This document shows positions 29,701 to 41,300 of a DNA stretch of 45,414 nt, in pieces; the first letter of the stretch is position 1; every line of letters begins with the position of its first letter. Both the position numbers and the translations under genes were made by a program. The stretch is taken from NCBI GenBank assembly GCA_037386725.1, contig JARRLT010000002.1, forward strand, positions 1 through 45,414. Direction: 5' to 3'. The notes beneath the pieces were generated by a model. It was given only the letters and a program-made list of their open reading frames with translations. It did no database searches and was not told the origin of the DNA. The stretch comes from Promethearchaeota archaeon (GTDB taxonomy: Archaea; Asgardarchaeota; Lokiarchaeia; Sigyniarchaeales; SOKP01).

Positions 29701-32700
29701 AATGAGTAGTATGGATCTTCTGTTAGGCCTAAACCATCGATATACATACTATATAAATCATCAATTACATCACTCCATGATTCAATTGTATCGATATAAG
29801 GTTCGGCATTTATGAAATCAAACACGCCTTGCTCTACACCATTAACGATTATACTCCATTGGTATTGATTTAATCCTAAATAATTATTTCCTGAACACTC
29901 AAAATTTACTTGAATATGATAGAATTCATTATTATTAACTTGTAATAGTTGATGATTGCTACTTCCGTCAAAATATTGAATATAGCCCTCATCAATTAAT
30001 ATTTTAATAACATCTGTATCAGTTCCTTCTAAAGTAAAATAAGAAGCTTTTTGAATATCATCAGTACCCCACCAGAATTCAATGGTTCCCTTATTCATTT
30101 GGGCGAATTTAGAAGTAAAATCCCATTTACCTGCGTTATTCCTATCGGTGGCTTTAAATACTGAATTGTGCCCTAACCATTCACTTATTACTTCTAAATC
30201 ACAATTTGAATCTGTACCAGAATAATCCGAAAGAAAGGTGATTTCAGAAGCGGGATTATTTATTTCTTGATCGAAAGAAAAAGTTCCATAGAAATTACCT
30301 GTTTCTAAACTTTCGTCTCTAAAATCAAAACTACCATAAAACAAGTCTGGTTCAGAAGTGTAAAAGAAACTTTCCGATGCTTTATAGTCAAAGGTGTTAA
30401 ATGATTCTCTCCATAAGGTTTCTTGAATACTATTTGGATAGGATTGGATTGAACTAAAATCTGCATCACTTGTAGCTAAATCGCCATTCATATAAGCGGT
30501 ATAATCAATGTAAGTAAAGTCATCATTCCAAGAAGGAGTCTTGTAAAACTGACCGCCATTAAGATTAGAATCCAATATTCCGTTATTCCAAGAAGAAGAA
30601 GTATATCCATCATTATAAGTAAAATCCCATCCCAAATATCCGCTATTATCATCTTCTTTATAATTATAACGCGGGAATTCATTATAAAGGTATAATGGGT
30701 TAAAGCTTGATTGACTATTATATAAATTAGGATAGACCTCATAAGATCCACTTAATGTATCAAATTGGATTTCGTCAACATAGACAAAATAAGCATTCCC
30801 AGTAGAACTAGAGAGAATACTAAGGGAATTAATTAAAGATTTTGAATTTCCTAAATAACTAAACGGTCCATAAGAAACATCATCGATAAAAAGTCTATAT
30901 TGACCCAGATTAAGTCCTTTATAAGAAGAACTTGTCTCCGATCTAAACTCAATTGTTATTTTATACCATTGATCAGGGTTTACATCGATTAAATCTATTT
31001 TAATCGAATTATCTGTGGTTTTCAATTTATTATTCTCAAAGAAAACAGAAATTAATTTATTTTCGCTTTCTCCTAAGAATACTTCTGAAAGATCTGCAGT
31101 AGAAGTAGTTCTAAAGTAAAATTCAACCCTTCCATATGACATCATCCCTCCCAAAGATTTTTTTACTTGGATGTTATTTATGGGGGAATCATCTTCAAGC
31201 TGGAGAACAGAAGTTCTTCCATCTAATACATCTATTATTTCAGAATATACATTTAATCCATCTCCCGATTTTATTATTTCCCAATCAGAAGGTTCTTCAC
31301 CGATGGCATTTTGGCTAAAGGAATAAGTATGATTAAAGTATTTGAAATTTTCTAAATTCCCATCATAATTCCATAAATTGTCGGTATGATCATATAAAAT
31401 GTTAGAAGACGTTACAAAAGGGATCGTACTCCATGATAAGATTCCTTCATTCATATATACATCTTCTTCTTGAAGAGGATAGGAAGAAGAGCTGAATTCG
31501 AGAGCCGAACCTACCGCTCCATCCACTAAATGCTGTTCTCCCATAAGAGTACCATCATTATTGGATGCAGAATCCGTTATCTTACGTCCCTCATCATCTA
31601 ATCTCCACCACGCTTTTTCACCTTCTGCAATTTGTTGCTGGGAATAAAGCCAATTCACTTGATCTCGTGATAAACCGAAATCAAAAAATATTATTTCATC
31701 TAGCTTACCCGAAAAATATTTATTATCACGCATATCAGTTCCTATAACAAGATCTAAATCGGGGTTTATAAAGACCACTTGGGAAGATTCCATACTATCA
31801 ACCATTTTATTATCAACGCAAAGAATTCCATAGGGCCCATTTCTGGAAACAACGACATGATGCCATAATCCATCGTTAAAAGCATTTGGAGATTCAAGCT
31901 GAAATTGATATCCGCCTGTATTATAAATATAAAATTGTACTTTTCCTTCTGAAGTCAACAGTACTTCAAATTCACCAGAGGTTCCTTCTGGACCTAATTC
32001 TCGTTTTCCTATTATAGTACTGGCTGAAGTTGCTTCGGAACTAAACCAAAATGAAATTGAAAAAGGCATATATCCTTGAATAACTCGATCTTCAATATCC
32101 ATATATTCATCTGAACCATCAGTATTAAATTCAAGAGCATAATTTCCGACTTTCCCTTGAACCCAATCATCTTGCTCCATATTTTTTAACGCACCAGGGA
32201 ATGTGTTTCGCACATCTATAGTCATAGTTCCCTTTCCCTTTTCAAATGGGTACCAGCAAATGGCTTCCTCCTCATTATTTTCAAAAGTTATAGGAGTAAG
32301 GGGATCAGCGTAAATATTCTCAAAATTTTCTATTCCCGTATAGATAGAAATAGTTGGACAAGGGACATCCAAATCAGCAAAAAATTCATATTCATAATCC
32401 TTTCTGTTAAGATAAATATCTGTAACTCTTAATGTAATATATATTACGTCACCAGTTCCAGTGGTTGGTAATTCGTTTTTAATGTTATTCCATACTAAAT
32501 TAAATTCATTCAAAAAGGTTGGATTTCGCTCGAAAAATCCCTTTGACACTAGTTGATCATTTTCGTTATAATATAATAATTGAACGCTTGAAACAGTTCT
32601 ATCTGTGATAAATGTAAAAAGTTGGCTATTTGGAAGATAATATCCATTTGGTCTAATAAGATATCCTAAAGCTGAAGTTCTCTTAAAATATGCATCTGTA

Positions 32701-35321
32701 TAAATTTCATCTAAAGTAAGGTTTTGAGTACCTAATTGGGATTCTTGAAATTCATATAAAATCTTTTGACGAATCTTTAAGGAATTCCTATTAGTAATTT
32801 GGCGTAAAAACCCTCCGAAAAAACCAATATCCTTTTTTGGATAGTAAGGTATTGCTTTATACCCCTTTAAGTTATCACCAATGCTATAGGAGTGATCAAA
32901 AGAAAATCCGATCCCATCCAAATAAAAGATATGATTAGCATCTCCGCCCTCAAAGCTAAGTTCATTAATTCCTATATTAGGGATATTAACATAATGAAGT
33001 TCAGTTCCTTCTATTATCCCGTTAATCATAATATCAAAAGTACCCGCACCATCATGCATATATAATCTGAAATGCATAAATTCATTATTAGGAATGGAAT
33101 CAGCTTTAACTGTGTGCCAAACACCATCATAATATTTTATATCATCTCGATCCAGATGTAACCATACTATATCTGTTCCATCTTCTTTGAGTTTGATATT
33201 TACTCTTCTTCGATTACCGTCATCATAAGTTGATTTCGCAATCCAAAATTCAATCGCTGGATCTGCAACATTTGAACCGAAATTATTAGTAATTTGCAAG
33301 CTTCCTGATGATAATTGTTCGCATTCAAGTACTTTATAATGGCCATCAAATGCAGGAATAAGCTTTACTGAACCCTCTCCATTATACAAATCAATAAAAT
33401 CTATACTTTCCCCTTGAATATTACTAGGTAAATCAATAAAATCGTAGGTTGAGGGATATATACCTTCATTTATTACATTGAAACCTTTTTTATTCAATCC
33501 AACTTTGTAATTTGGGTCCCAAGAGAGTCCAAATGAATCATATTGCCCTTTCGTATCTATTATATCAAGATAAGGATGAATATAGGTAAGATAATCCAAA
33601 TCATTATCATTAAAGAAATTTTCATTATCAATCAAACAATTATCGTTTAAAAATAGTGAAAAATTATCATAATCACAATCAAAAGTAAAAGTAAAATGAA
33701 CCCAATCACCGATATTATAGGAATAATCAATTAGTGAAAAGGATCCTTGCATATGGTTCCCATAATACACTTTCATTTGACCCCCAGAAATGTCTTCTAA
33801 ATAAATCTTGGTTGCTAATTCTCCACTTGAACTTTCACCAAACTTGATTCGCGATCCAGAGGAGCCTTGTGAAAGTCTTTGCCACCATTCAATTGTTCCT
33901 TTTGCTTGCATGAATTCTATTCCGCTTACTTGAGCGGTTCCAGAACCATCAGAGATAATTTCTAAGATTTTACTATGATCTTCGATCTCGGGTAAAACAT
34001 ATGCATTTTTTCCAGAGGAAGTACCTGTGATAGTCCAGTCATATGGAAGGGCATAATTTTCAATATCCTCGAAAGAATAGGTACCTGGATAAATATCTCC
34101 ATTTTGCTTTTCATAATGCGGAGAAATAATTTGGACTAAATCCATTTGCACATTGGAAAACTCTCTAGAAGCAAGGAGATTAAACGTCTCTAGAGAAGTA
34201 TATTCTTTTTGGGAATAATGAATATCTAAATTATAATAATTAAGAGTAAGTTTTGAGGAAATTGCTAAATTACTGTTACTTCTTCCTAAGAGTAGTATAA
34301 GAGAAGCTTCATATTGATACTCTAATTTAAGGGATAAGAAATACACATCTGTAATTTCGTTATAGGTCACAAATTCATCCAGATCAGAAGAGAGAAGAGT
34401 AAGATGATCCTCTTCAAATTTAATCTCTGTATATTCATTATATTGATTTTTAACGTAAAGATTAATTTCATCATATTGACATTCTAATAAGGAATTAAGT
34501 AATAAATCGTCATAGTTAACTTCGGAAGAATAATCAAGATTCATTTCTATAGAATTTATATCAACATTTTCATTGCAATAATAATCTGTTAGATCCAAAG
34601 AAAATTCAATTGAAGGGCTTAAGCTAATCCTTTCGGATCTTTTCCCTACATATAGCGAAGAAGTTACTGAATCTACTGCAAACCCCGATTCATAAACAAA
34701 GGAATCGGGAAAAACCATATCTAAGCAAAATATAGATTTTAATTCAAAACCAGAATCTGTTAAATTGAAATAATGTTCAAATTGGGTAAATTCTCTATCG
34801 GCAACATAAGAAAATGAGCCTAATTCATTATGATTATCATAGCATACAGTATCAATCATTTCATATCTTCCAGTCTCAAAATTGAAAAGATATATATCAA
34901 TAAGACTAGCCGATTTCTGCTCTTCCTTGAGGAATACGCTCCCATCGTATGAATCAATATCTAATAACTCATATCCCGGAATCTCAGAATAATCTACACT
35001 TAATTCTAAATATTGGGTTGTATTAGTAACATAATCATAATCAAAGGAAAACCTCATAGGATCTAAAGTTGATAGAGAACCTTCTTCCCATTCAAATGCC
35101 TTATAGGAAAGATCCACAAATGCTAACCCCGTAGACAAATCTGGATTCAAAATTGATAATTGCTTAGAAGCTGGGGTATAATAATATTGGCTTTCAGGAA
35201 TAACAATATCGTTAATGCGAAATTCATTTATTTCATAATTGAATTGAGGATAAAATAAAGAATCCTCTACAATTTCATAGGTTGTTTCATCAATTTTTTT
35301 TCTACTTGCTCTCCATTCCAT
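8730..35321 (-). CDS. Giant ORF-B: 8,863-aa beta-rich surface-protein-like polypeptide (LamG/ConA-like modules, super-repeats, C-terminal membrane hairpin), possibly the continuation of ORF-A
   Basis: Single 26.6-kb open frame. It contains LamG_3-type signatures (GKLDEIIFFDFGLSRDQVNWLY; GFLDDIRIYQVCLTPLDIEWLY). The N-terminus MEWRASRKKIDETTYEIVEDSLFYPQ has no hydrophobic signal. Its frame opens only at 35336, inside the ORF-A 3' end, and no SD-like motif lies upstream of the ATG at 35321. Two hydrophobic helices sit ~150 aa from the C-terminus. Confidence 0.85.
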   Translation of the reverse strand: MEWRASRKKIDETTYEIVEDSLFYPQFNYEINEFRINDIVIPESQYYYTPASKQLSILNPDLSTGLAFVDLSYKAFEWEEGSLSTLDPMRFSFDYDYVTNTTQYLELSVDYSEIPGYELLDIDSYDGSVFLKEEQKSASLIDIYLFNFETGRYEMIDTVCYDNHNELGSFSYVADREFTQFEHYFNLTDSGFELKSIFCLDMVFPDSFVYESGFAVDSVTSSLYVGKRSERISLSPSIEFSLDLTDYYCNENVDINSIEMNLDYSSEVNYDDLLLNSLLECQYDEINLYVKNQYNEYTEIKFEEDHLTLLSSDLDEFVTYNEITDVYFLSLKLEYQYEASLILLLGRSNSNLAISSKLTLNYYNLDIHYSQKEYTSLETFNLLASREFSNVQMDLVQIISPHYEKQNGDIYPGTYSFEDIENYALPYDWTITGTSSGKNAYVLPEIEDHSKILEIISDGSGTAQVSGIEFMQAKGTIEWWQRLSQGSSGSRIKFGESSSGELATKIYLEDISGGQMKVYYGNHMQGSFSLIDYSYNIGDWVHFTFTFDCDYDNFSLFLNDNCLIDNENFFNDNDLDYLTYIHPYLDIIDTKGQYDSFGLSWDPNYKVGLNKKGFNVINEGIYPSTYDFIDLPSNIQGESIDFIDLYNGEGSVKLIPAFDGHYKVLECEQLSSGSLQITNNFGSNVADPAIEFWIAKSTYDDGNRRRVNIKLKEDGTDIVWLHLDRDDIKYYDGVWHTVKADSIPNNEFMHFRLYMHDGAGTFDIMINGIIEGTELHYVNIPNIGINELSFEGGDANHIFYLDGIGFSFDHSYSIGDNLKGYKAIPYYPKKDIGFFGGFLRQITNRNSLKIRQKILYEFQESQLGTQNLTLDEIYTDAYFKRTSALGYLIRPNGYYLPNSQLFTFITDRTVSSVQLLYYNENDQLVSKGFFERNPTFLNEFNLVWNNIKNELPTTGTGDVIYITLRVTDIYLNRKDYEYEFFADLDVPCPTISIYTGIENFENIYADPLTPITFENNEEEAICWYPFEKGKGTMTIDVRNTFPGALKNMEQDDWVQGKVGNYALEFNTDGSDEYMDIEDRVIQGYMPFSISFWFSSEATSASTIIGKRELGPEGTSGEFEVLLTSEGKVQFYIYNTGGYQFQLESPNAFNDGLWHHVVVSRNGPYGILCVDNKMVDSMESSQVVFINPDLDLVIGTDMRDNKYFSGKLDEIIFFDFGLSRDQVNWLYSQQQIAEGEKAWWRLDDEGRKITDSASNNDGTLMGEQHLVDGAVGSALEFSSSSYPLQEEDVYMNEGILSWSTIPFVTSSNILYDHTDNLWNYDGNLENFKYFNHTYSFSQNAIGEEPSDWEIIKSGDGLNVYSEIIDVLDGRTSVLQLEDDSPINNIQVKKSLGGMMSYGRVEFYFRTTSTADLSEVFLGESENKLISVFFENNKLKTTDNSIKIDLIDVNPDQWYKITIEFRSETSSSYKGLNLGQYRLFIDDVSYGPFSYLGNSKSLINSLSILSSSTGNAYFVYVDEIQFDTLSGSYEVYPNLYNSQSSFNPLYLYNEFPRYNYKEDDNSGYLGWDFTYNDGYTSSSWNNGILDSNLNGGQFYKTPSWNDDFTYIDYTAYMNGDLATSDADFSSIQSYPNSIQETLWRESFNTFDYKASESFFYTSEPDLFYGSFDFRDESLETGNFYGTFSFDQEINNPASEITFLSDYSGTDSNCDLEVISEWLGHNSVFKATDRNNAGKWDFTSKFAQMNKGTIEFWWGTDDIQKASYFTLEGTDTDVIKILIDEGYIQYFDGSSNHQLLQVNNNEFYHIQVNFECSGNNYLGLNQYQWSIIVNGVEQGVFDFINAEPYIDTIESWSDVIDDLYSMYIDGLGLTEDPYYSLHDNTNSYGLPTELKFVDKYSLSYDTEVLIKDSLSDYNAKNHKYILDLYDDNPNEVVSVSHLLDTSQTNFEFEFYFMISEYKYSEFLNLKEGGNSIVRLRTTPTGNIEFHDGTSWTWGVNPFSYSANMWYHIYISLNDLENTFSLKIDTTSFTDLSYYSDITLGIDEICLISSTDDSDYHLYYDAFGLEFNPDYNIGDNLNPHDITELKEAFDVVQPQPNSDIYITNLDDHENVLAIEDGISNENPEVWINFDSSKIAETIEFYWGTDNPNQNTYVELIGDIGCAVYFMIESSTFRYFDGVTQDTQRVVEADTLYHNKIVFDCTNDQFNWYIEDNLVQSGGNFQTLCNNIIGIKLYTDDADLGMTGYWDAFGFSWDPNYLEGDNRFTNLEHQIWPYNTETSIGQLSSYSDGVQEGDPLHLFNQIPTYNDYSSDWSIWDFISVNPNRASKFEDDNNGVFSSSLIQDHNYEIPSYPSDYFLNGLGFTAGDLWIADGNWDQIFSTQINPVSYIKWHEDFIAQESYMTHTFSPDGYSSTFDVSSGSAVMQNILPYNTYQNDWYTWQMSSTSDTVSSWTPSSAIFSSEMETPSSRATPAQYDDFSVTTGQTVSSSGMDLEISDENINDDVQIHSDSMNLEESTVWDETAWQFDPSYMNSVKLPDYDSMVQYTMDGTRLILNNFEKASDQGTLTTNNWGGLSYNPTFITSSYNADTGVFRTPIKQLNVASTGGSYTNRDSDVSLLQDVGGVWEASRYSASTWVNEVFKSGASFSTSPSCSSTDDSTYNIVNVYGETFYLWSESDDSYMRNFHFARQITTSSGYWLNAYDEYDFYAIRSESEYQISELRFNFKTMFDFIVGSQCYIYFQIKRDNGSWETFKTISGEEGWTTRTITLTPSNLYYGQSNFNQYMRSDRRIEVRLNFECHSTPVGLFGQDQRAEGRMECNMARMRVTHKAKTSTVTFNFDSGILNGVNDFFIFYHIKTVTGTADLKIDGSSFEFSDTWLSGAYIPYNDTTSISINFRNWDNHVNVDNVNTIQIDYLYLKLINPSDTSEISVHFNDGFLDNQFDTRFLQIFQIDVSFDCDVSKIDDNYGSIAKVEVIDPESGNYNSQKSLSTGLQTFTNTITEYNAISNNGFDIKILNRNSEITITSDVVVTMTFSCLYDDGLGGEYTFEQEFSFTPDLNLDQNEAENGDYSVYSDIDFTEGNLLKITLEGKDSEGYFNMVDSRQYENTGIINYFFNIYNMEELYGFRITYYLGGENSQVRVNSLYLTDQRDTSGVGAELEVDIDFHLGIVNDNSLDNVLLGYRYKLDSTAANFDFALKTTSDSWVTQENSYDTSDTWITNTLNINSNYWTEVGGEYIVTARFYIEGSEQMYAIHEYLLYLDQFYIDYEYTKINPITYDLDAELTQDIHNTFLDYYDDGYPNYEKFYNITFSFDYTLSKVREDHPDLTFAEVIITNDEHGYFYSESLTISEIVQPFSKNFEYNSYNDNNGFKIQIILQNGELDIIENSFNIQMEFECFDLSHVPCIEQDLVIECPITLNDLNEQENGKWLLETSWDLTDTDGQLQVILDIKADDAWYNQIFTNIYTTSQTSEQFDLRSIMNTYIPGSHYFQGVYVTFLFSGVGICEISQFDLKDLREDQVKPQIQIEIHKIFDPDYDINAASLLTSYKLSRSVESFEFQIFNPSTLLWDIIDNNCDESIENNVFNILSYIDSSDNSIEFRFEIIGLPHYPENEFILYLDRFEYDYEATWISPQNEITSILSHTTNLDGFLDQYDSESLYSDYLLNYEITISFDYSIISKNENYPDLDRVRFKVENNEQTDFVGFDGLITNTGHFEQTFLYNSYQDVDGIELSFEITNAQIDFIGELNIGAVFLCEEDPLGGTLLKQEVVIDLPDDQMELTDDEKKQNIFILDMDYIFNDNGGLGQFSYYIEIKTDGEPQWKTIIDSILFPYNISNYMKDNGYFIFDDFRVVLTLEGNLAELTVNFIDLKVEKIQPSIKIYIDIPFSLGIGKSLEEVSLFYDYDVDVLDIDSCGLYVADGTIWELKETIVPGIGSLDVTNYVRGSIFGDYIVSFMIEAKGPKLNILYDSDFNLSLDRFQLEYKWTQTGPQQDIEAEIIKTYDSTILDEFLSHEGIYEITIDLDYSIIHKSNDYDNYVEFIVQDSFQSQLYYMSLSDQMNTIQSTPISFDTSLSGHSFDIKFIITNIEFDIDRIEINMWNQCKSDINDPYHNLYQTFTTYYPFESNLTNLQKEHGLFFIDMTYSFQTIDDGLQYNPSNHKLQIELNIITDSGTIQSYVNRYASVGQETISFNIRAILGSNIEFKDFYITITVSGDQSEFNLLEFKFYEQVQKPSIINFSVSIDPSVQYEAKNVELEFKFRGEFIEEITESSYSFINISFWNYEDLSYDSYQCALIGTSYRYVFKVNLTNINNLVNFTFFARDYAHQFEIYLEECTVYMNDYVKLSPVFSESQEQFSLVTWINTSSVANQGVIYGEFAENSDARNYISILPNGALNYSQFISSGGLSATSGPGLINFGHWTQIAVTKAKNNVTFYKNGEYFSSIKYTQIYTGDIPLYAGIGARYYSDMWNHDLLEGFLDDIRIYQVCLTPLDIEWLYAHSLGVNQSLSLRSPQPYYFIPKEEYRIIDLDTGIIGPWVEFTSRNITQLSDLGNLPSNFSIQYRVTDPSGNIGNSTTYNINNFTNILFSKETSLTWTNNLLNLNKIGEERILSFANEHQFGDIPELDVFMNDFYFGKAVLNGNEYEISFGTQNNISTLVGYSESLISEDIYTNINPISKVSWETRKDNYIGVVKHSLLQEEISFINPLVYNETRAININNLYSSEFVLENFMRLRDAYYINKTTNEKIQLLFLQDFAVNTEGKLYFPETSCLHKFYINGSEIDQNLIYFEYDASRKQDQLNLENADGFFVNLSVPAAYGSNITIGGLDIRFNDIEGNSFVKHYDSLDLQRYFAANNRVERNIFGFGKMVNLPLYIDIDKLSLSSPEISFNLKYLESIDILVSDPEHWPNSFIESEENYDIANLPYQKVLLHDIRLYNLIADQQVLKDSVIYSNITVKAPNYFNFYANSFIKIQRMKINLTDITLFYNRTEISAFTKMKYSDIIELNCRFNHSSDKIPLEDFVEIPLSLSNLTSMEDILSLGGLHYVNKLDLNSLAGFTESYYYSKFTVPRFLSVYNLSLYSLGSPIHEILLNETIKVEIIQKDLDSIRPIFLEQEYFEVEYGETILIKGCVVEDKEYFVEDEVYLYNYQEALDNTTTHKLQFTAPYDDKEFMNYNEFAIYYIDKNTQIKPLYSSIDDVDYKNRNILSYKDPEIFYKNNEYYLNIFWNTTSPQFIDYDTKLLISYILRGDPISPVSFSQVDEFNRSLGSNLLEIPFAKFDPISNKWITEGNITDIKSIQREFYKQQFEGSTITIHGPTYTYDSQEIELGIGGVTMLSINKSNSENFVILSPDNYSWDIDEFGDLTIQYPHYDVGDKLEVLYYTARPIALDYRSLRINSIKIVDADNESIFVELASSDYYLCDDRSTLILLDPYNSAFYHENLTAFDLVYIEYFTSYDKLLDLSNNLLILQQDSQGNYIPIDYTSIDSLGTFKYEQKFSIDSPLSLPLGGTRLNNIRLAYLPSELYNKSRQEEILLNYEVAGQKIYGYKENENWYKTIKVKTTPDKSKLKFISDGIDETLILSSSKYIEKRDYQYTFNPLETLESNEEYTAFQLDLSINNDHKFKFQLTDKESGQALTDKIVWLQIGFTPKAETEYLDTRYTTEDGFHPYYESLGTDSITFIGPGESPSKMFSKPITYSLKSPEGNITKYGPYYWNYAITDAQGIANFDLSFNNNYLDDYYRIFGKEIDSIENVTLYIRAFTSQFSWEDFAMYNNKGLLCSDSEDVFTGGKIIEDYDFEQLFLRDSTYAEGLIRLHKQDAILSAQDTVRYEMPAYNVTGNQSLPYDPLYLNVRLTGGKPIQDGQISLEELLSIRDVHDMESNGISLLNKKFSHVALVEFYRSQESIPAKYMYSEIEENGKIMFDNFTTAEIVNELGYGVHSIKITVLGSPLYKETQPVVIPFEIITDNWFKFGQKQTKIDLIEPLIASYGQAYRGEDPMYFESNYPHIIGTLYVNGNFTDIGEEHDISYFDVVTLNVNCTIINDEGNEEEFPLRENVKLQPFNHDGFMKFDIGLGPEDAWILNLSCKVKLIFDISENKNSIYNESRNVEIVLLDLRVEENPTSSTPTELWSLYEDGFESHDSDLEIQVDQRSVTTLSGKKNIGTQAANETFGIEVNYFYSNEENTQFQITDNDDLADYLNILGLINVTALSVTGITNDQNYQFKEGIDYILPFNDAEVYSLSELSEINFTQNGQKPDENSEFYVNYKFDFDFQKNFADIILGYNNHINISTIVFNFTSQSEKDEKPLYSEFVDIFKGDGLKSDYILNYSIADISPMWNNSEVVIFNEDELNKTYGIIQKDIFNGFPRIMFETPPNENFEIKYGLRRQYNVGTGFQVEDQPIYDSVRLLSSNTYENSIINANGALQASYIKDPSLYVGLDKENDTSVEIYNLPLLYAPEINMSFLFDSVCVNQTQDFGENDTLTIDLFFVSSYALDSYYYDSITINLSYNSLKDQLKSDGSYKILYNKDLQAVYDSYGTSSFDIILRISQNTHDPRIIPYLIIDEFDYICDDYLLELYDVMPTDINGSLDVGAAINTNHYFTLNSLDLIQRYGVLNNSLVTVAFDGIQYADIISLIQEEGNYSLNYRGSQETFRVSRDNNYKLPSNLGVLIDSYNLDEDLIESGYLDLYYGSGTELDGIKSYSKEVHIENINPLYGEYESELVNRVPVSWDNTYNITDQFLSTDNIMVTGSVYYHQIFDIGSSDYINSSVLYSIFEDWEGPSIKFGVKLPDNITLAAIRSISAPYYYGLSTQGFPIGRDQGSYCILPWNGDSRSYFIPENILNSSFYRLAYSENKSKYLLFFVDKYYFGNKGLLDPASKFMVDYSAFHTFKEGFNYEIIEDPLKPWISQIKWDYSYIDDENFKLHPDFNENDSFTVHYSSLEWDDFSEEYIKEITDKFEYQPEIFTNLTAQYYQNNNNASFSIMNNVPENQWGNEQIFEYIYAIIQNISNPEEKRIHKFTNLAWLYYINQFENSTSYFYINLNDLRDDVPDGFEIVPESKLKIETRFNSSKTVYSLSGIPFNYEYVDNSFSEYHLSLSINGGDPIYSNSPEFNNYVLKIENRLIYFDENAGISPQSNVEIQYKCKLEPGILERKHLTLYTNGFSDSFEEDQSIYREKYRKLSGGSIISPFEYSLSIEDKYSLYLSYRFNERNYYEEEFTINYTDYNSQLGGYEFTYIPSPLEEYMDEMQVNNDVALKVYYYGENEEIVFLENNDYYVNENSNKIVILDNGNEITTVNNVTKFFVSFENGIFDSEYESYLFTYNPSESDLEETLKVSNWDILGVNGLDVIPNLDAPYFSNEKDIGYTNAKCHASEIMTHLKSGEILRFNLQEELEGYGNILNRFEQGDFINLYLSTAITNIEGINRFIIRLKDSSSHLIDTQYISAENYRNYDGQLKISLPQDHISEVSLLDISIEFKSTGIYHPDNDINPQFQYVKWEGDKYFNHNGTEYVEIKLDKDVASDTYEQDKILVFNDELEVLDFVEKKPFFTTEEDEDGNIISYSINLPKEYILQNNPSEILQFKNDDFLLLRYDSPVKRGASLTIGKMYLERESLEKDYNIPKTELLFVNTYDEYNYTDFTNEYYYQVPIELTPFDTEFTNTYKQVKLDLDFSTLSDFASDGYIDFSDLVFTMNDPSYELTINEVMIRKESGVAKSILETDYARVWSYSELQVFNSSSNPEQDKYIFDLDAEPLFYPNSSWVENLKIYDANYNYYSAKVLGSQDQNSVQLLYNTTGNYFFWNTNFDEYQEYFGSQVQFPVMIEPDTDLFIEFCTNDSWEEPIRIDQPNIDFNSFEIYYENEYSLDPYYELIDGQLYNNLSIPEYNITQYYSESFKVYEDTIDYTFTFDIDSSLKEDFFNVSIYRVIGLNETFGNTNIEDGDDYILTLDLENNQLRIQDINQDQHHLDDFDLITVILNYTAGPVSSYSEIQFNSRCRNLYIQNASESFYDYYLIYYDRYVSFGKEVFYESITDSTSFEAIDYCRNPNIIDMNTKKILCYNESTLYDKFGLYYDSSNILYKADIGGDDVVDYKQTIDIDKDNVIDIIQYGQEDSDGSIVWYLTMHQSSSSETKYDKNFAQKDTSWFNLDEREFAHYTTDNFLLNYFRELLTSFIGLGPLFAVMVPNLDYWARKMLDEYVSVEENIVEESQTFYLDDNKDGNIDHEVSHYKRSQTSSYSTYSKETIIMAAQPLRFEHYLILHHIYNMMGVDNLLFTDDLTMNAIENGWLGIQQRRLDTWFVDQLTGIFSTLEATYRKFERITKEEVSKTSVEENLIYNDWNNGEIEETRVYSDIFDSYGTSINVGSMFSNIFTSHTLTDISTGDTINVTFNPQIPFTDPSNISWNRETWNVDNVPVKFDELIRSSGNDIERENHFEKTVTITIPNRYSLFNDYLKENSNTITDEGDVTFEIEGVVITPIDGVIYTSDLEKHQAGIDKVSGSYLYVDTDGNSYYDTIYVIQPSDWSNIHYHINSNDIPGNMIDYFDDMPINAWSSYDYLISYEGDYKVLAIGYNYDGDPNFDVYEKRDLNVRYNGLYELRMENNHNIQIPSFIMSNYWAFDFGKIDLVEQLFPNFDNGEKDYRVKDQLFEIYKLIPNNNEVYSEFYKEVRRKTFSTTWDSFLKRKDRDVTDQIVIGTSAAIAALAARITVSALTCGIGEINGWSVAAGIAAYTVTYSLLSEANMFIQRQHSASFQKAFTYNPIGQQRQSTKSLNQKVASDVGLANSYLFGHPGAFYTLVKTMDSSNPYQAYVLTYPPRPSKWDDPENFKNTCNLITNGGYPGLMRGYDFDNLNLDYLLLTGDYYIYEEKGYEYNANLQFRNYNSV
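9170..9312 (-). other. Predicted two-helix transmembrane hairpin near the ORF-B C-terminus
   Basis: DQIVIGTSAAIAALAARITVSALTCGIGEINGWSVAAGIAAYTVTYSLLSEA. These are two Ala/Gly/Ile-rich ~20-aa hydrophobic stretches joined by a short GEINGW turn, in a locally GC-richer patch. A ~146-aa tail follows. Confidence 0.55.
9830..11160 (-). other. Membrane-proximal region of ORF-B with FG-GAP/VCBS-like DxDxDG calcium-loop motifs
   Basis: ADIGGDDVVDYKQTIDIDKDNVIDIIQYGQEDSDGSIVWY, FYLDDNKDGNIDHEV and LYVDTDGNSYYDTIYV. The assignment rests on motif resemblance only. Confidence 0.35.
21850..22330 (-). other. LamG_3 / concanavalin A-like lectin domain in ORF-B
   Basis: FSLVTWINTSS...GHWTQIAVTKAKNNVTFYKNGEYFSS...GFLDDIRIYQVCLTPLDIEWLYAHS. 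The order of elements is canonical for Laminin_G_3 (PF13385): F(S/T)hxxW, WxhhAhT, hxhYxNG, and the terminal hDDhRIYxxxLT..ei..LY. Confidence 0.7.
22340..26620 (-). repeat. Four tandem, highly diverged ~1.05-kb (~350-aa) super-repeats in ORF-B
   Basis: Boundary signatures recur at ~26600 (IQIDYLYLKLINP), ~25560 (LYLDQFYIDYEYT), ~24485 (LYLDRFEYDYEAT), ~23415 (LSLDRFQLEYKWT) and ~22360 (FEIYLEECTVYMNDY). An internal signature recurs at ~26478 (IDVSFDCDVSK), ~25410 (ITFSFDYTLSK), ~24330 (ITISFDYSIISK) and ~23280 (ITIDLDYSIIHK). The spacing is 1,040-1,080 nt. There is little DNA-level identity. Confidence 0.65.
28555..34090 (-). repeat. Six ~190-200-aa ConA/LamG-like jelly-roll modules sharing a distinctive C-terminal GFSWDPNYxxGDN-type signature, interrupted by an Ig-like segment and a classical LamG_3
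   Basis: The modules end at ~33500 (YDSFGLSWDPNYKVGLN), ~32880 (YLDGIGFSFDHSYSIGDNL), ~30770 (YVDEIQFD), ~29700 (YIDGLGLTEDPYYSLHDN), ~29105 (YYDAFGLEFNPDYNIGDNL) and ~28555 (YWDAFGFSWDPNYLEGDN). Each also carries an early (G)TYSF/xW motif, an IEFW-type strand (GTIEWW, AIEFWI, RVEFYF, GTIEFWW, FEFEFYF, TIEFYW) and a Y(F/Y)DG...W(Y)H strand. Confidence 0.6.
31640..32270 (-). other. LamG_3 / concanavalin A-like lectin domain in ORF-B, followed by the start of a second degenerate one
   Basis: AICWYPFEKGKGTMTIDVRN...GKVGNYALEFNTDGSDEYMDI...PFSISFWFSS...GLWHHVVVSRNGPYGILCVDNKMV...GKLDEIIFFDFGLSRDQVNWLYSQQ. I confirmed the DNA position of the last motif by back-translating 31625-31710. The next stretch, WWRLDDEGRKITDSASNNDGTLMGEQHLVDGAVGSALEFSS, restarts the pattern. 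Confidence 0.75.
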
Positions 35322-38300
35322 TGAGATTCGGAAATATTAAATCTTGGAGTAAATGAAAAATCCTTTATCTCTTGAGAATAACAAGCAATGAATTCATGTC
35401 CGTTTAATTTTGAATCAATTTCAGTTCTAAATTCAACTAGTAAATCTGTATCATCACCTTTAAGCATAGTTTTTCTCAGTAGTTCTAAACATACATCTTT
35501 TTCTCCAGAGTAAGAAATGTCTTCAATATTAAAGGATAAAATATGCTCCTTAAACCCCAAATTATCTTGATTAATATCCGATATGAATGTTCCAATTGAA
35601 ATCTTTTCGTCAGTGTAAGAATTATAACTGAAAATATCCGCTATGGCTTTATAAGAAGTTATCGAGAATCGTGATTCTGAAAATCTTGAGCGATCAAATC
35701 CTGAAGTAAAGTCAATTCTAAATGAACCGGTTATGAAATCTGAGTCTGAATCAATTATATTGTATCCATATATAAAGTTATCTTGAATTGAAGGAATACC
35801 AACTTGGGATCCATTAAAAGAACTATAAAAGACAGCACCCGCAGGAATTCCCACGAGTTGAGTTGGTTGAGTAAAATTTAAGAAAAGATCACCTATTGCA
35901 TCTGTTCCTAAGGTATAATTAACTTTAATATCAGGATGCGAGAAAGTACCAAAGATTTCAGCATCGTCTCTTACATTAGTAATAAATAATGGATCTGAAA
36001 ATTGAGTATTTCCAAGGGTAATAGAATTTGGAATATACCAGTAATTATCTCTATATTCAAGATAAATCTGAGGAACATATTCGATATTTATATATTTAAA
36101 GAGCCCTTTATACATAGGATCAAGAATAAGTTGATCTTCTGTCACTTCGAATTTTGTAAGCGGATAATCATAAATAATATCGTCATAATCTTCCTTAAGT
36201 CCTTTAATTCCAACTAGATCACCAAAATAAGGTATATTTGATAAATTAAACTTGAGATAATCTTTTGCTATTAACTGATTAGAAAGAGTTGCTACTGAAG
36301 TTATTCCTTTTGAACCTTTATATCTTGAAGCGATAGGAGTAAATTGATAGGGAATATTATGAGGAATTACCATCCAATTTTCTGAATTAGGATTCTCCCA
36401 TTGTAATGAAAAGTTTGTATTCGCAAAATATTTATTAAATGCGGAAAAAGATGTTGTATTTGTGGTTCCACTATATTTATTAAATTCAGTATCTAGATAG
36501 GTTTTTTCACTTTGAGTGTAGGATTCATAAGCATAGACTATTTTTATATGGGTTAATTGAGAATATATCGAACTCAAATCTAAAATAATCTCCCATCTTG
36601 AAAAATCATATTTATCTTTTGAAAGTTCAAACCATCCAAGAGAAGTCTTATACATAACCTTCTCGATCCTATCGACCGGAGTATATTTTAAGGTGATTGT
36701 TGGAGTATTACTTGTGAGATTACTTTTAGAAAAAATTTCATAAGCCGGAAGTAAAGGTTTACTAAAATCAAAAATATCTGTATTATGGATAAGAGTGTAT
36801 TCAAAAATCCCTTTAGTAGAAGCAATAACAAGTTTTTCTTCGGAGTTTTCATTGATTGCAAGTAAATCCAAGATATGTAATCTTCCAGTATCAAACCCCG
36901 AGAGCTCATATTTTTCCCACTCTCCCGTATTTACATTATGCTCATAAACAATTACTCGATCTCTTTCTCCAATTATAGACAAATCTAGCCCAACGGATAC
37001 TTTATCATAATTATCATTTCGCAGGAATTCTATCACGGAAATCTTTCCCAAAATAGATTCCTCAATGATATGTTCTAATTTAAAGTTATAGTCTAATAAA
37101 AGAAGTTTTGAATAATAGGACTGATTGATGAATCCCCCAAGAAGAATCGCCTTTTTATTGAAATAGGTGAAATTTTCTACAATTTTAATAGATGTTGGAA
37201 GAATGTTATAATCAAGCGTAGTCTCAGCTTGTTTAATTAAGTTAAAATTTGTTCCAAATTGATATTTTGCCAATATTATATTTTCATCGACGGAGACTGA
37301 AGCTGAAACCGCTATGCTATTACCGTCAATTTTATTTGCATCAAAAGCTAAAATTTCAGTATTTTGGATATTGGTTACATTACTCTTTAATTTCCATGAG
37401 TAAGTGGTAGTATTAAAATAAAGAATATCGATTCTATTTGGTAATATTCTTATAATTTCTTGGAATCCATCATTATTTGTGTCAAATAATTTAAATCGTT
37501 GACCTTCGATAGATGTAATTGGATCTTCTAACTTGCTTAAATCAAAGTCATTAGTCCAACCTGAGATGAAAGAGTAATTAAAAATGGAAAGATGAAGATT
37601 TTCTTGCTCTCTAGAAATAATTATCGGTTGATATATTCCCCTAGAAAACATCCCCCATGACCCATAGAGATTTTGATCAGTTTCAGGTGTAACCAAGAAT
37701 GGTAGATATGAAGTACTTGTGTTTTGCATATTTTTTAAGAAATCTATATCTTGATTCATATCCCATGTAATCTCATATCGCGTTCCCGCATATTCTGTAG
37801 TTGTTATTAATGCAGGATTCGTATAAAGATCAATCCATCTATATCGTGCAGAGTCATAATATTCAGCAATGATTGACCAAAATTGTTCGTTATCAAAATA
37901 ATTAGTAATTTGGCCATCAATAACTTGGAGATTCTGCGGTTCGGAGGGGTCATACTCGAAAATTTGCTCATATAATATATTAGTAAGCAATTTAATGTTG
38001 GAATAGTCATAAATTGCTATAGGGGCTATTTCAGAAATATAATTATGTCCATAATCGAATAAAGTTACTCGTATATAATTAATACTTGAAATCTGGTCTA
38101 ACATTGAGGGTGTAACAACTAAAGCCCATTTATCGTAGCCTAGAAAAGTGAATTTTCCTATTTCTTGCCAATTAGCTTGAATTTCACTTCCATAGGCAAT
38201 TATTTCTTTTATATCCATCGTGCCGAGACGGGTTCTATTTGTGATTGATGTATTTAATAAAAGGGTACAATCTGAAAGGTCTTCTGTTCCTAAACACAAG

Positions 38301-41300
38301 ATTCCATTATTTGAAGCGTCTTTTCCAAGATTCCATCGATATAGAGTTCCTTCGCTTTTGTCAATATGAGGGTCATAAGATCCCTCGAATTTCTCTGAAA
38401 TTAAGACATTCGGCATTCTTAAATAATGTGTAGCATATCCATTTCCATCTTCAAGTTCAAACCAAAATAAGAACTTATCTTGATCTATAGCATTATTATA
38501 TTCGGAAATATTAAATTGATCTAATATCCATTTATGGGTACCCAGATCAAATGTTAATGGTATTTTCTGAGGATTTAACTCATAAAATTCAGCATAAATA
38601 AAGTTAGAATATGATGGATTTAGCAAATATCTGTAATCTTCATCAATTTTAACAAATAAGGCTCCCCCTTGGGTAATAAGTTCAAATTCTACCTTCTTTC
38701 CATTTATAAAAATTTGTTGCATTTCCTTAATTAAAGATGTATCAAAAATTACAGGATCTCCAAATCCTATTATTTTATACAGATAGTCATCAAAACTTAA
38801 AGGAGTATCTAAAAGAAGCTTTTGATAAGATAAAGGATTAGTGTATCTCATTGAGACATTATATACTCCTTTTTTATGACCAAGAAGAGCCTCAATATCA
38901 CCCCAATCAAACCCATCATAAGTAATATCTTCGGCTGTAAGAGATATATTGTCATTTCCATTAAAGTATAATCCTTCAGTTATCTCGAAAACTTCCTCAG
39001 TACCTTCAAAATACACTGTATGTGTGATTTCATTTAATACGGGAGGAATTGCATCAAAATATCTGTCTAATTTATAAGCTTCTCTACTATTTCCTGCTTG
39101 ATCAGTACAAATTACAAAAACACTATAATTTCCAGGGGGGAATTGAGTCACATCAATTAGAAATTGCCATCTATCAACATCAATTTGCTTTTTTGAATAA
39201 TCAAAATCAGTATAGATGGTTCCCGTAGCATCACGCTCTAATCTAAGGTCTAAAGTATAATACCCAGATGCTTCATTAATGTTTACAATTATACTATATA
39301 ACCCAGAAAAGGTGAATTCTTCATTGGTAATCTCTGTAAATTCTGGTTCAAGATTATCAATATATAATGTAAAGGTCGTAAAGGAACTTTGATTTAACAT
39401 ATCGACGCAAGTAAGCTTGTAAGTATAATTTCCATCAATTAAACTGCTATCATTGAAATGGAAAATATAAGAAGTATCAATTACTTCCCAATATCCTAGG
39501 ATTGATACATTAAGATTCCAATCTTTTATAGTGGAAGGATCATAAATTTCAAATTCTATAGTTCCGTTTTCTGGATTTATACACTTATCAATTTGCTCCT
39601 CAGTATTTCCAAATAATTTCGTAATTTGAGGACCATCATAATCAAATAAATAATTATTAATTGCGTAGGTACTTATGGTTCCTGAAATATCTTTGAAATA
39701 CGCTTTCAATTTATAATATCCTTGAGGAAGGGTTGTAAAATTATAGGAGCCAACATATTGGGAGTTTGTCCTTAAAGAAGAGGTTGTGAGATAATCGATT
39801 TCGATATCGCTTATAGAATCAAGATATTCATTGCTATCTAAGGTTATCAAAATATTACTTGAATCGATAAGATAAGAAAACTCATAAGACGTTCCATTTA
39901 CATAAACATTTTGGACAGAGCAAATATCATTTGGAAGTAGGATCGGTCTTGGTATAACGAAATAATTCTCTTGGATTTCTATATTAGGATAAAGCTCATT
40001 ATAAGTGGAATCGTAATTCTCATGGAATACAATTGTATCGACTAGTCTATTTTTAGAATCCCATATTCCTAAATATGGGTAACTATTATCAACAATAAAA
40101 GGAATACCTTGAGAATTATTATATGAATCATACGAAGTAGCAAAAGAGAGATATACATTATCTATTGCAGCATAATCAATCCATGAAAGATCATTTATTT
40201 GTATCACATCTTTATAAGCGCTATATGTTGCTGTAATTATTACTTGATCAACCCCGACAACCGTTTGATTTTGATAGTATCTAATAGTTATAGGGATATC
40301 TACAAAATCCGTTCCATAAATCGAATAAAAAATTGGGGTTAAGGCAATATCATCATTATTCTGATATGAATCTTCAAAAATGTAATTATTCCCTAAACAT
40401 TCTCTATATGATAAAATAAAGGATTCATAGGGAGTACTTACCCTTATACTTGAAATATCATTATCATAGGGTTTAATTGAAACGTTAAGATCAATTAAAC
40501 CATTCTTATTCACAGTATAATAAGGTGCATCAAAACCGTTAATTATAAATTCGCCTTCATTAAAATTTTTTATAAAGTAATAAGAATCATTAGTAAGAAT
40601 AAAACTATTTCCAAAACGATCATATGATATTAATCGGAAATGAACTTTGGAGTCTCTAAGATTTTTAATGTTAAATTGTATTAATTTAGGAAGTTCTTGA
40701 ATGGTATAGGTTTCAAATGTGATCCAAGTGGCTTCTGGAGTATCATATTTGAAGTCCAGCCGGATAGTATCAATATCATCTAAAGTAGAATTAATGAGAA
40801 GATTGAGATAATAATCTGATGGATCATTAAAGACTTTTGGAAACTCTATTTGCTCAAGATAAATAACAGGAGAATTAAAGTCAATTATAATCGGATCTAA
40901 ACTATAATTATAATAATAAAATTTTTTAAATGGAGAGAATGTAAAATTTGCATCTATTATAAAACTGGCATTAAATTCCCCATCTTCAAGTCCATTTTGA
41001 ACTTTCCAATCAAGAAGCGAATTCAATGGAATAATATTATAATGAGAACTAAGATAAGAAGAGGAAAATGAATTTAAATAGTCAATATTATCAGAATAAT
41101 TAACATATAAATCTATAGAATTAATTTGCCCTCCAAAATCTTGGATCGCGTCTATAGAAATCTCAGAATTATGATTAATTCTTCCTTGTAAATCTAAATA
41201 CAAAATATCTAACGAATCATGAAAATGATCAATTTCAAAATATCCTGTTGCATTATTTATCGAATAAGCAGAATATGCGATATTTTCAAAGGACCCTCCT

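What the first reader, a model, noticed from the sequence alone, without database searches (positions are those of the whole stretch)
35267..35336. A8 run forming an A_AAA_AAA -1 slippery heptamer exactly in the ORF-A/ORF-B overlap, which would fuse them into a ~12,170-aa protein
Seen in the sequence: ORF-A reads ...GAG CAA GTA GAA AAA AAA TTG ATG AAA CAA CCT ATG AAA TTG TAG. ORF-B is in the -1 frame relative to it and reads ATG GAA TGG AGA GCA AGT AGA AAA AAA ATT GAT GAA... The A8 run (35301-35294) is an X_XXY_YYZ heptamer (A_AAA_AAA) in the ORF-A zero frame. After a -1 slip the next codon is ATT, which gives ...NGEQVEKK-IDETTYEIVEDSLFYPQ... (3,318 + 8,854 = 12,172 aa). The -1 frame opens only at 35336, 35 nt before the run, and ORF-A stops 25 nt after it, so the run sits in the middle of the short window where both frames are open. 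ORF-B has no signal peptide or TM at its N-terminus and no SD-like motif before its lone ATG, which fits a continuation rather than a separate secreted protein. This T8/A8 is the longest homopolymer I noticed in the window. There are three alternatives: programmed -1 frameshifting or transcriptional slippage; slipped-strand phase variation of a surface giant (A8/A9 switching between a 3.3k-aa and a 12k-aa product); or a one-base homopolymer error in the assembly.
Basis: partly seen in the sequence, partly recalled or inferred. Interest (0 to 1): 0.8.

Follow-up and report, generated by a model that had tools for sequence, protein, structure and literature searches.

The report
Broken giant archaeal gene, not recoding
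The A8 run sits where one enormous (about 14,400-residue) Lokiarchaeota surface-protein gene is broken in this contig because a short conserved stretch of sequence is missing there, so it is most likely an assembly or deletion scar and not a programmed frameshift signal.

Summary
The only homopolymer of 8 or more bases in the window (A8, minus strand, 35301-35294) forms an in-register A_AAA_AAA in the ORF-A/ORF-B overlap. Codon statistics switch frame exactly at the run, and at least 12 homologues (about 30-35% identity) align in one stretch across the junction, so ORF-A and ORF-B are one gene.

The slippage and phase-variation readings are not supported. All 11 aligned homologues have 13 residues (TPYIPIxQxxIxL) exactly where the -1 fusion has a gap. 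A second NCBI Lokiarchaeota MAG contig is 100% identical outside three short blocks. At this point it reads NGEQV-DFSYIPLNQS..., which is the missing motif. The window therefore lacks at least 28 nt, 3n+1 in total (31 or 40 nt fits best), and the A8 is the join.

The same pattern recurs at ORF-B/ORF-C (8738, +1, homologues continuous) and at the ORF-C stop. Each of the three blocks that differ between the contigs holds one giant-ORF stop codon. No downstream RNA structure is predicted, and 96 other in-register slippery heptamers cause no frame change.

Most likely this is a local misassembly (about 0.6) or a real deletion (about 0.2). True recoding or phase variation is about 0.1 or less.
The parts
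35294..35301 (-). A8 run. It forms A_AAA_AAA in the ORF-A frame and AGA AAA AAA ATT in the ORF-B frame. It is the point where the coding frame changes and where the window and the sister contig stop being identical.
   Evidence: Homology limits the shift to between QVE (ends at 35300) and KIDE (K starts at 35297).
35267..35336 (-). Stretch where both the ORF-A and ORF-B frames are open.
   Evidence: ORF-A-frame codons after the run score -4.5 bits, and only 0.05% of true in-frame windows score that low. ORF-B-frame codons before the run score -0.9 bits.
35267..45247 (-). ORF-A (3326 aa): the N-terminal fragment of the giant gene. It has a cytoplasmic head of about 186 aa, a TM cluster at 187-414, and LamG_3 at 1052-1206.
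8730..35321 (-). ORF-B (8863 aa): the central fragment. Its first 9 codons (MEWRASRKK) are mostly out-of-frame read-through. It has LamG_3 domains and a hydrophobic segment about 190 aa before its end.
2165..8791 (-). ORF-C (2208 aa): the C-terminal fragment. Its apparent N-terminus MKKRVMSTTRIF... has a negative coding score. Real ORF-C-frame coding starts at about 8737.
35189..35300 (-). J1 discrepancy block, 112 nt. It is genuine coding sequence (KIDETTYEIVEDSLFYPQFNYEINEFRINDIVIPES), homologous to other family members. In the sister contig it is replaced by 83 nt.
35409..35476 (-). Upstream segment whose inverted copy (68 nt, 2 mismatches) replaces most of the J1 block in the sister contig.
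8700..8738 (-). J2 discrepancy block, 39 nt versus 33 nt in the sister contig. It holds the ORF-B stop (8732-8730). Its first base, T at 8738, is the simplest candidate for the extra nucleotide that causes the +1 shift, and it completes the palindrome AATTATAATT (8747-8738).
8836..8866 (-). Upstream segment whose inverted copy (31 nt, 1 mismatch) fills the J2 block in the sister contig.
2058..2200 (-). J3 discrepancy block, 143 nt versus 92 nt in the sister contig. It holds the ORF-C stop (2167-2165). It is antisense to a leucine-rich repeat (LRR) unit of the convergent LRR gene.
927..2315 (+). Convergent LRR-protein ORF (462 aa here, 382 aa in the sister contig). Its 150-nt overlap with ORF-C is probably a product of the J3 defect.

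Best explanation
ORF-A, ORF-B and ORF-C are fragments of one giant gene (about 14,400 codons) of a Candidatus Lokiarchaeota MAG. The protein is inferred to be membrane-anchored, with a cytoplasmic N-terminus, 6-7 TM helices, an exposed region of about 11,500 residues with LamG domains, further hydrophobic segments, and a K/E-rich tail of about 2,200 residues.

The ORF-A/ORF-B break is not a decoding signal. At the A-run this contig lacks a short stretch of the organism's real sequence: at least 28 nt, 3n+1 in total, most simply 31 or 40 nt. That stretch encodes the family-conserved motif (D)FSYIPLNQS.... The loss puts the downstream part in the -1 frame, and the A8 is simply where the two remaining ends meet (GTAGA | AAAAAAATT).

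The most likely cause is a local assembly or gap-joining error at a poorly covered site. The reasons are these:
- The window contig and a second contig of the same population are 100% identical except at three short blocks.
- Each contig is defective in its own way at those same three places.
- Each of the three blocks holds one of the three giant-ORF stop codons.

Shown: gene continuity, the position of the shift, the missing motif, and the co-located discrepancies. Inferred: that the cause is technical and not a mutation, the exact length of the missing piece, and the topology. The confidence given (0.6) is for the technical-artefact version. That the break is a missing-segment defect of some kind (technical or a real deletion), and not recoding, I put at about 0.8.
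For: 1. Frame switch at the run. ORF-A-frame codons score +8.2 bits before the run and -4.5 after. ORF-B-frame codons score -0.9 before and +8.4 after. None of about 8,800 off-frame windows reaches +8.4.

2. Full HMMER search with the fused junction +/-600 aa gave 132 hits. At least 12 align in a single stretch across position 600/601, for example P0006 (7107 aa, q280-1010), P0008 (3931 aa, q282-996), P0009 and P0010 (alignments).

3. Alignment A2. All 11 homologues have TPYIPIxQxxIxL between QVE and (S/T)K-ID. The window fusion has a 13-column gap there. The sister contig's ORF-A end, NGEQVDFSYIPLNQSQF*, fills it.

4. A profile of the 11 homologue segments scores the reconstruction with the sister-contig piece at 78.2 bits. 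The plain -1 fusion scores 61.4 and the ORF-A end as it stands scores 17.5.

5. The sister contig JARRLU010000003.1 (GCA_037386705.1) is 100.000% identical over 10,027 + 9,954 + about 17,700 nt. It differs only at 35189-35300, 8700-8738 and 2058-2200 (plus one base at 2055), and beyond about 838.

6. At J2, homologues from other Asgard MAGs (P0137 Hermodarchaeota, P0138-P0140) are continuous, and the frames abut at 8738.

7. At J3, concatenating the two contigs' blocks gives natural ends for both convergent genes and explains the lone base difference at 2055.

8. No RNA structure is predicted downstream of the run. There are 96 other in-register slippery heptamers with no frame change.
Against: - No reads were available, so a technical origin is inferred and not shown.
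- The sister contig is itself corrupted at the same site. An inverted copy of upstream sequence replaces the A-run and the next 111 nt, so it cannot give the true run length or the full missing piece.
- A8 is not normally difficult for Illumina assembly, and why two assemblies fail at the same three sites is unexplained.
- The 31-nt reconstruction is in frame, but any guess has a 1 in 3 chance of being in frame.
- The two contigs could be real alleles.
Confidence: 0.6

Rival explanations
1. The deletion is real. In this population the giant gene has truly lost 3n+1 nt at J1, for example by replication slippage between short direct repeats (AAGTAGA) or by template switching at a quasi-palindrome. 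The gene is then a pseudogene, or is expressed as separate fragments.
For: - The ORF-A-frame QV(E/D) and the ORF-B-frame SRKKIDE both match homologues over the shared AAGTAGA. That is what a deletion between short direct repeats would leave.
- The extra T at J2 completes a perfect palindrome AATTATAATT, a classic templated-frameshift signature.
- The sister-contig variants look like template-switch events.
Against: It needs at least 5 independent structural lesions in two lineages at the same three sites, with no ordinary substitutions in about 44 kb. Each contig retains sequence the other lacks, which is what patchy assembly of one underlying sequence produces.
Confidence: 0.2
2. This is a simple homopolymer miscount. 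The true sequence is A9 (or A6), the protein naturally lacks the 13-residue segment, and the sister contig's extra piece is an allelic or artefactual difference.
For: The frame change maps inside the run, and the run is the longest homopolymer in the window. The plain -1 fusion still aligns across the junction (61.4 bits).
Against: The 27-28 nt unique to the sister contig encode the family motif YIPxxQ in the ORF-A frame at exactly the gap position, adding 10-17 bits. That is not credible for junk. The flanks are 100% identical, so the two contigs are the same organism.
Confidence: 0.06
3. The site is a programmed -1 ribosomal frameshift (tandem slippage on A_AAA_AAA), or RNA polymerase slips on the A8/T8 tract. 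Either would yield a full-length protein from the sequence as written, as in Sulfolobus solfataricus fucA1.
For: There is an in-register A_AAA_AAA, a short overlap with a stop 25 nt downstream, and no start signal for ORF-B. The archaeal precedent uses A-AAA-AAT in a 40-nt overlap (PMC1616953).
Against: - Homologues are unsplit.
- No downstream structure is predicted. The nearest hairpin starts 26 nt away and the z-score is -0.38.
- The heptamer type is common in this gene, 96 in register.
- The product would lack a conserved 13-residue segment that the organism's own sister contig encodes.
- A second shift of the opposite sign, with no slippery motif, would also be needed at J2.
Confidence: 0.05
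4. The run is a slipped-strand phase-variation switch. A8/A9 length changes in the population toggle between a 3.3k-aa product and the full-length product.
For: The run is the longest homopolymer in the window and lies inside a putative surface protein.
Against: The one other assembly of this population shows no run-length variant. It shows a different, larger rearrangement. A9 would not restore the missing motif. No such contingency locus came up for archaea in the literature consulted here, and this point rests on my own knowledge.
Confidence: 0.03
5. ORF-A and ORF-B are two separate, translationally coupled genes.
For: An ATG exists at 35321, and the sister MAG is annotated as separate genes.
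Against: - Homologues are continuous across the junction.
- ORF-B-frame coding potential is absent upstream of the run.
- There is no SD, signal peptide or TM segment.
- The composition of ORF-A and ORF-B is the same.
Confidence: 0.01

Closest known systems
Sulfolobus (Saccharolobus) solfataricus fucA1 programmed -1 frameshift (PMC1616953)
   Same: It is archaeal. Two ORFs overlap by a few tens of nt with the second in the -1 frame, and an A-rich X_XXY_YYZ heptamer (A-AAA-AAT there, A_AAA_AAA here) lies in the overlap.
   Different: fucA1 has a flanking putative stem-loop and rare codons, and its shifted product was shown by mass spectrometry. Here no structure is predicted, homologues are unsplit, the shifted product would lack a conserved segment, and a sister assembly shows that sequence is missing at the site.
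Fragmented giant genes in metagenome-assembled genomes (assembly-induced frameshifts)
   Same: A very long ORF is cut into adjacent ORFs in different frames, with no start or export signals on the downstream pieces. Independent assemblies disagree exactly at the breaks. A homologous giant gene on JGI contig Ga0073582_101285 is likewise split, into a 1301-aa ORF, a 396-nt gap and 3931 aa.
   Different: Nothing essential. The unusual detail is that two contigs fail at the same three sites, and one of them does so with inverted duplications.
Archaeal 'huge proteins' with an N-terminal Laminin_G_3 domain (PMC11573180) and Asgard giant genes / aloposons (PMC8813620)
   Same: The source is an Asgard (Lokiarchaeota) MAG. 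The protein is over 5,000 aa, and LamG_3 is almost the only Pfam domain. Its function is unknown. The apparent arrangement is tandem giant ORFs, with a tRNA-like fragment downstream of them (838-777).
   Different: The 'tandem' arrangement here is one broken gene. The aloposon hallmarks (four upstream genes including MinD/ParA, homology to Otus/Ephialtes) could not be tested because the contig ends 167 nt upstream of ORF-A.

Membership tests
Programmed -1 ribosomal frameshift site | X_XXY_YYZ heptamer in the zero-frame register within the overlap | tested here: met
   A_AAA_AAA at 35300-35294. However, 96 such in-register heptamers occur in the three ORFs.
Programmed -1 ribosomal frameshift site | Stimulatory element: a hairpin or pseudoknot 5-9 nt downstream, or an upstream SD-like site | tested here: not met
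   The fold of 35301-35180 gives z = -0.38, and 70 of 200 shuffles fold as well. The only local hairpin starts 26 nt after the heptamer.
Programmed -1 ribosomal frameshift site | The split and the slippery site are conserved in orthologues | tested here: not met
   At least 12 homologues have one continuous frame across the position. Apparent ends at this position (P0015-P0017) are contig truncations.
Programmed -1 ribosomal frameshift site | The shifted product is collinear with unsplit relatives at the shift point | tested here: not met
   A 13-residue gap lies exactly at the junction. The missing motif is present in the sister contig.
Programmed -1 ribosomal frameshift site | The trans-frame protein is detected | not testable with these tools
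   No proteome or transcriptome data.
Homopolymer phase-variation (contingency) locus / transcriptional slippage tract | Run-length polymorphism among reads, strains or transcripts | tested here: inconclusive
   The only other assembly replaces the run with other sequence. No reads were available.
Homopolymer phase-variation (contingency) locus / transcriptional slippage tract | Changing the run by one base restores an intact, family-like protein | tested here: not met
   A9 gives a readable frame but leaves out the conserved 13-residue segment.
Archaeal LamG_3 huge proteins (PMC11573180) | Length of 5,000 aa or more | tested here: met
   ORF-B alone is 8,863 aa. The joined gene is about 14,360 aa or more.
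Archaeal LamG_3 huge proteins (PMC11573180) | Laminin_G_3 domain(s) toward the N-terminal part, with few other domains | tested here: met
   PF13385 at ORF-A residues 1052-1206 (E = 7e-13) and three stretches in the first half of ORF-B (E = 4e-30). ORF-C and the second half of ORF-B have no Pfam hit.
Aloposon (Asgard giant-gene mobile element, PMC8813620) | Integration at a tRNA gene downstream of the giant genes | tested here: inconclusive
   A tRNA-like fragment at 838-777 scores 27.7 bits, just under the Rfam threshold of 29, and its D-arm is missing. The sister contig diverges exactly there.
Aloposon (Asgard giant-gene mobile element, PMC8813620) | Four conserved genes, including a MinD/ParA ATPase, upstream of the giant genes; homology to Otus/Ephialtes | not testable with these tools
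   The contig ends 167 nt upstream of ORF-A. No Otus/Ephialtes sequences were at hand.

The most novel reading that the evidence does not exclude
The three co-located lesions in both contigs could be biological. Under this reading, quasi-palindromic or short-repeat hotspots inside a giant Lokiarchaeal surface-protein gene undergo frequent template-switch or slippage events in vivo. The A8 join would then permit leaky -1 decoding, giving a population-level on/off or truncation switch for a protein of about 14,400 aa. That would be a form of phase variation not described in archaea.
Probability: 0.04. Interest if true: 0.75.

Novelty: not a real feature. Interest (0 to 1): 0.15.

Why it matters
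As a recoding signal it does not hold up, so no archaeal frameshift or phase-variation site should be recorded here.

Three practical points remain:
- The three "genes" annotated in both public MAGs (for example MEJ2248096.1, the 8,818-aa ORF and MEJ2248098.1) should be read as one gene of about 14,400 codons. That would be among the largest predicted archaeal proteins, and it belongs to a family found in other Asgard MAGs.
- A long homopolymer in a short two-frame overlap can be the scar of a missing segment and not a slip site. Comparison with unsplit homologues tells the two apart.
- Both public contigs carry local errors at the same three positions.

Tried and rejected
- Word-index homologue search with the fused junction found nothing, not even ORF-A itself. 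I treated it as a false negative. The full HMMER search later found 132 relatives.
- Back-translated peptide scans of genome, metagenome and viral contig collections found no relatives, so those collections gave no independent copy of the locus.
- Exact look-ups of ORF-A, ORF-C and the LRR protein found nothing on record for the window's own contig.
- Self-BLAST for internal repeats that could bridge the junction showed the protein is not repetitive enough.
- Pfam, NCBIfam and PDB sequence searches found only LamG_3 and LRR, and no functional handle.
- tRNA and Rfam scans at gathering thresholds found nothing.
- The idea that homologues also end or start at the junction (P0015-P0017) was rejected. 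Those ends are contig truncations.
- A literature search for the sister MAG's accession found nothing, so the sequencing and assembly methods are unknown.
- I did not run structure prediction, because the homologue alignments had already settled continuity.

Full report
**1. What is in the sequence**

The minus strand carries three very long ORFs:
- ORF-A, 35267..45247, 3326 aa
- ORF-B, 8730..35321, 8863 aa
- ORF-C, 2165..8791, 2208 aa

ORF-A and ORF-C share a frame and ORF-B is in another. ORF-A to ORF-B needs a -1 shift, and ORF-B to ORF-C needs a +1 shift.

- The A8 run is at 35301-35294.
- A_AAA_AAA is in the ORF-A register.
- The ORF-B frame opens at 35336.
- The ORF-A stop is at 35269-35267.

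The run is the only homopolymer of 8 or more bases in the 45,414-nt window. The window is an entire contig. The heptamer alone is not distinctive. The three ORFs contain 96 in-register X_XXY_YYZ heptamers with Y = A/T, including a perfect A_AAA_AAA at 31164-31158, and none of them is associated with a frame change.

**2. ORF-A and ORF-B are one gene, and the frame changes inside the run**

I trained a codon log-odds model on the three ORFs.

| Frame | Before the run | After the run |
|---|---|---|
| ORF-A frame | +8.2 bits (12 codons) | -4.5 bits (8 codons) |
| ORF-B frame | -0.9 bits | +8.4 bits |

Only 0.05% of genuine in-frame windows score as low as -4.5. None of about 8,800 off-frame windows reaches +8.4.

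A full HMMER search of 1.84 billion representatives, using the fused junction +/-600 aa, returned 132 hits. At least 12 proteins at 30-35% identity align in one stretch across query position 600/601. Examples are P0006 (7107 aa, q280-1010), P0008 (3931 aa, q282-996), P0009, P0010, P0011, P0012 and P0013.

Residue-level alignments match the ORF-A-frame NGEQVE to NG(A/T)QVE, and the ORF-B-frame KIDETTYEI to KIDEIAYQF / KIDDTTFQF. This confines the shift to 35300-35297, which is inside the run. Homologues that seem to start or stop at this position are truncated by contig ends.

**3. The -1 fusion is not the whole story**

In alignment A2, all 11 homologues carry 13 residues (consensus TPYIPIxQxxIxL) between QVE and (S/T)K-ID. 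The window fusion has a 13-column gap exactly at the junction.

ORF-A's 90% cluster contains a second NCBI protein, MEJ2248096.1. It comes from another Candidatus Lokiarchaeota MAG, GCA_037386705.1, contig JARRLU010000003.1 (44,650 nt). That contig is 100.000% identical to the window over 10,027 nt up to window 35301, and again from 35188 onward. In between it has 83 nt instead of the window's 112 nt.

The first 27-28 of those 83 nt (TTTTTCATATATTCCTTTGAATCAAAGT) are unique. Read in the ORF-A frame they give D-F-S-Y-I-P-L-N-Q-S, which is the missing family motif in the right place. The rest is an inverted copy, with 2 mismatches, of window 35409-35476.

A profile built from the 11 homologue segments gives these scores:

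| Sequence scored | Bits |
|---|---|
| Reconstruction NGEQV-DFSYIPLNQS-RKKIDETTYEIV | 78.2 |
| Plain -1 fusion | 61.4 |
| ORF-A end in the sister contig | 27.6 |
| ORF-A end in the window | 17.5 |

The organism's sequence therefore contains a piece that the window lacks. The piece must be 3n+1 nt long to explain the -1 offset. A 31-nt piece (…CAAAGT + AGA) gives an in-frame reconstruction, and 40 nt would match the homologues' length. Which of these is right is inference. Either way, the A8 is the place where the two retained ends meet. The window's own 112-nt block is genuine, because it encodes KIDETTYEIVEDSLFYPQFNYEINEFR..., which is homologous to the family. Each contig therefore holds part of the truth.

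**4. The same thing happens twice more**

Outside J1, the two contigs differ in two further blocks and at one isolated base:
- 8700-8738 (39 nt versus 33 nt)
- 2058-2200 (143 nt versus 92 nt)
- one base at 2055

They also diverge beyond about 838. Each of the three blocks contains one giant-ORF stop codon (35269-67, 8732-30, 2167-65).

*J2.* The best codon-score switch from the ORF-B frame to the ORF-C frame is at 8732-8738. ORF-C's apparent N-terminus scores negatively. Homologues from other Asgard MAGs are continuous across it: P0137 (Hermodarchaeota, 94% query coverage), P0138, P0139 and P0140. KVRSNNQFDTIRPTCVDKRPQYEFVN aligns to LQFRNYN|QYNRIIPTVLNQKPQYIFVN. The simplest lesion is one extra T at 8738, the first base of the block, which completes the palindrome AATTATAATT. 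A loss of 3n+2 nt is not excluded, because homologues are about 20 residues longer nearby. In the sister contig this block is again mostly an inverted copy of nearby upstream sequence (8836-8866).

*J3.* Concatenating the sister block and the window block gives natural ends for both convergent genes. ORF-C would end ...AEFLRVFVESEYDIKKVTIRDLTYNGLFTL*, and the LRR protein ...KTNLENIYFYTKE*. The same model explains the single base difference at 2055 as a breakpoint inside an imperfect direct repeat, TTTTCTAA / TTCTCTAA.

ORF-A, ORF-B and ORF-C are therefore one gene of about 14,360 or more codons.

**5. Mechanism**

A programmed -1 shift or polymerase slippage at A8 fails four tests:
- No stimulatory structure is predicted (z = -0.38).
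- Neither the split nor the site is conserved.
- The shifted product is not collinear with relatives.
- A second shift of the opposite sign, with no slippery motif, would also be needed.

A8/A9 phase variation or a one-base miscount would not restore the missing motif.

The real choice is between a technical defect and a real deletion. I favour a technical origin at about 0.6. Two contigs with no ordinary substitutions over about 44 kb nevertheless carry at least 5 structural discrepancies, all at the same three sites, and each contig retains sequence the other lacks. That is the pattern expected when poorly covered spots are bridged wrongly, and it is not the pattern expected from independent mutations.

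A real deletion or templated mutation gets about 0.2. In its favour, both frames match homologues over the shared AAGTAGA, the extra T at J2 perfects a palindrome, and the sister-contig variants look like template switches. Only the reads can decide between the two.

**6. What the gene is**

The source is a Lokiarchaeota MAG, with GC of about 31%. ORF-A is preceded by an AT-rich, TATA-like stretch and has no SD.

The joined protein has these parts:
- a hydrophilic head of about 186 aa
- a cluster of 6-7 hydrophobic helices at 187-414
- about 11,500 residues rich in D/N/S/T/Y, with LamG_3 domains
- a hydrophobic segment near residue 11,980
- a K/E/R-richer tail of about 2,200 residues with no Pfam, NCBIfam or PDB match

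ORF-B has no export signal of its own, which fits a protein that depends on ORF-A's membrane anchor. The topology is inference.

This matches the commonest architecture reported for archaeal proteins over 5,000 aa, LamG_3 toward the N-terminus with unknown function. Twelve such proteins are reported in Lokiarchaeota (PMC11573180).

**7. Comparison and novelty**

The closest recoding precedent is S. solfataricus fucA1: A-AAA-AAT, a 40-nt overlap, a flanking stem-loop and rare codons, and a product shown by mass spectrometry (PMC1616953). The resemblance here is limited to the heptamer and the overlap.

The closest real match is an assembly-fragmented giant gene. A homologous gene on a JGI contig is also broken.

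As a recoding or phase-variation site, the finding is not a real feature. As a gene, it is a new member of the known Asgard LamG giant-protein kind. Interest is low (0.15). The residual novel reading, in vivo hotspots with leaky decoding, has a probability of about 0.04.

Noticed in passing
Homologues are continuous across it and the frames abut at 8738. With ORF-C included the gene is about 14,400 aa, not 12,170.
   Followed up: yes
window 2058-2200 (J3) and 927-2315: ORF-C and the convergent LRR ORF overlap by 150 nt here but by only 4 nt in the sister contig. Joining both contigs' blocks gives natural ends for both genes, so this contig probably lacks 92 nt at 2200/2201.
   Followed up: yes
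L001 10045-10112 and L002 10056-10086 (sister contig JARRLU010000003.1): The public sister contig carries near-perfect inverted copies of sequence 100-170 nt upstream (68 nt with 2 mismatches, and 31 nt with 1 mismatch), exactly at J1 and J2. They look like fold-back or template-switch artefacts. Their cause is unexplained.
   Followed up: partly
window 777-838 (- strand); L002 17945-18003: There is a tRNA-like fragment (anticodon and T arms plus acceptor 3' end, 27.7 bits, just under the Rfam threshold) downstream of the giant gene and the LRR gene. The two contigs diverge exactly here, and the sister contig has a different tRNA-like sequence on the other strand. This is reminiscent of tRNA-integrating Asgard 'aloposons' with giant genes (PMC8813620).
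   Followed up: partly
window 31158-31164 (- strand, ORF-B): A second perfect in-register A_AAA_AAA (an A7 run) lies inside ORF-B with no frame change. Ninety-six in-register X_XXY_YYZ heptamers occur in the gene overall.
   Followed up: yes
window 1-~690 (- strand): A partial gene for a small multi-pass membrane protein with Cys-rich ends (MKNEKLCKGDVDCQNCEID...) runs off the window start. I did not analyse it.
   Followed up: no
L003 3-3908 and 4304-16096 (JGI 3300005663, Ga0073582_101285): A homologous giant gene in another metagenome is also split, into a 1301-aa LamG ORF, a 396-nt gap and a 3931-aa ORF that runs to the contig end. Fragmentation of this family in assemblies seems common.
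   Followed up: no
P0138 (homologue of the ORF-B/ORF-C junction region, 2049 aa): This homologue carries a LAGLIDADG_3 (PF14528) homing-endonuclease domain in its C-terminal part, which the window protein lacks.
   Followed up: no
fused protein residues ~11,980-12,040 (window ~9300-9120) and the ORF-C part: Hydrophobic segments lie near the end of ORF-B. They are followed by a K/E/R-rich tail of about 2,200 aa with no detectable domains. This suggests both ends of the giant protein are cytoplasmic, with an exposed loop of about 11,500 aa between them.
   Followed up: partly
   Followed up: yes
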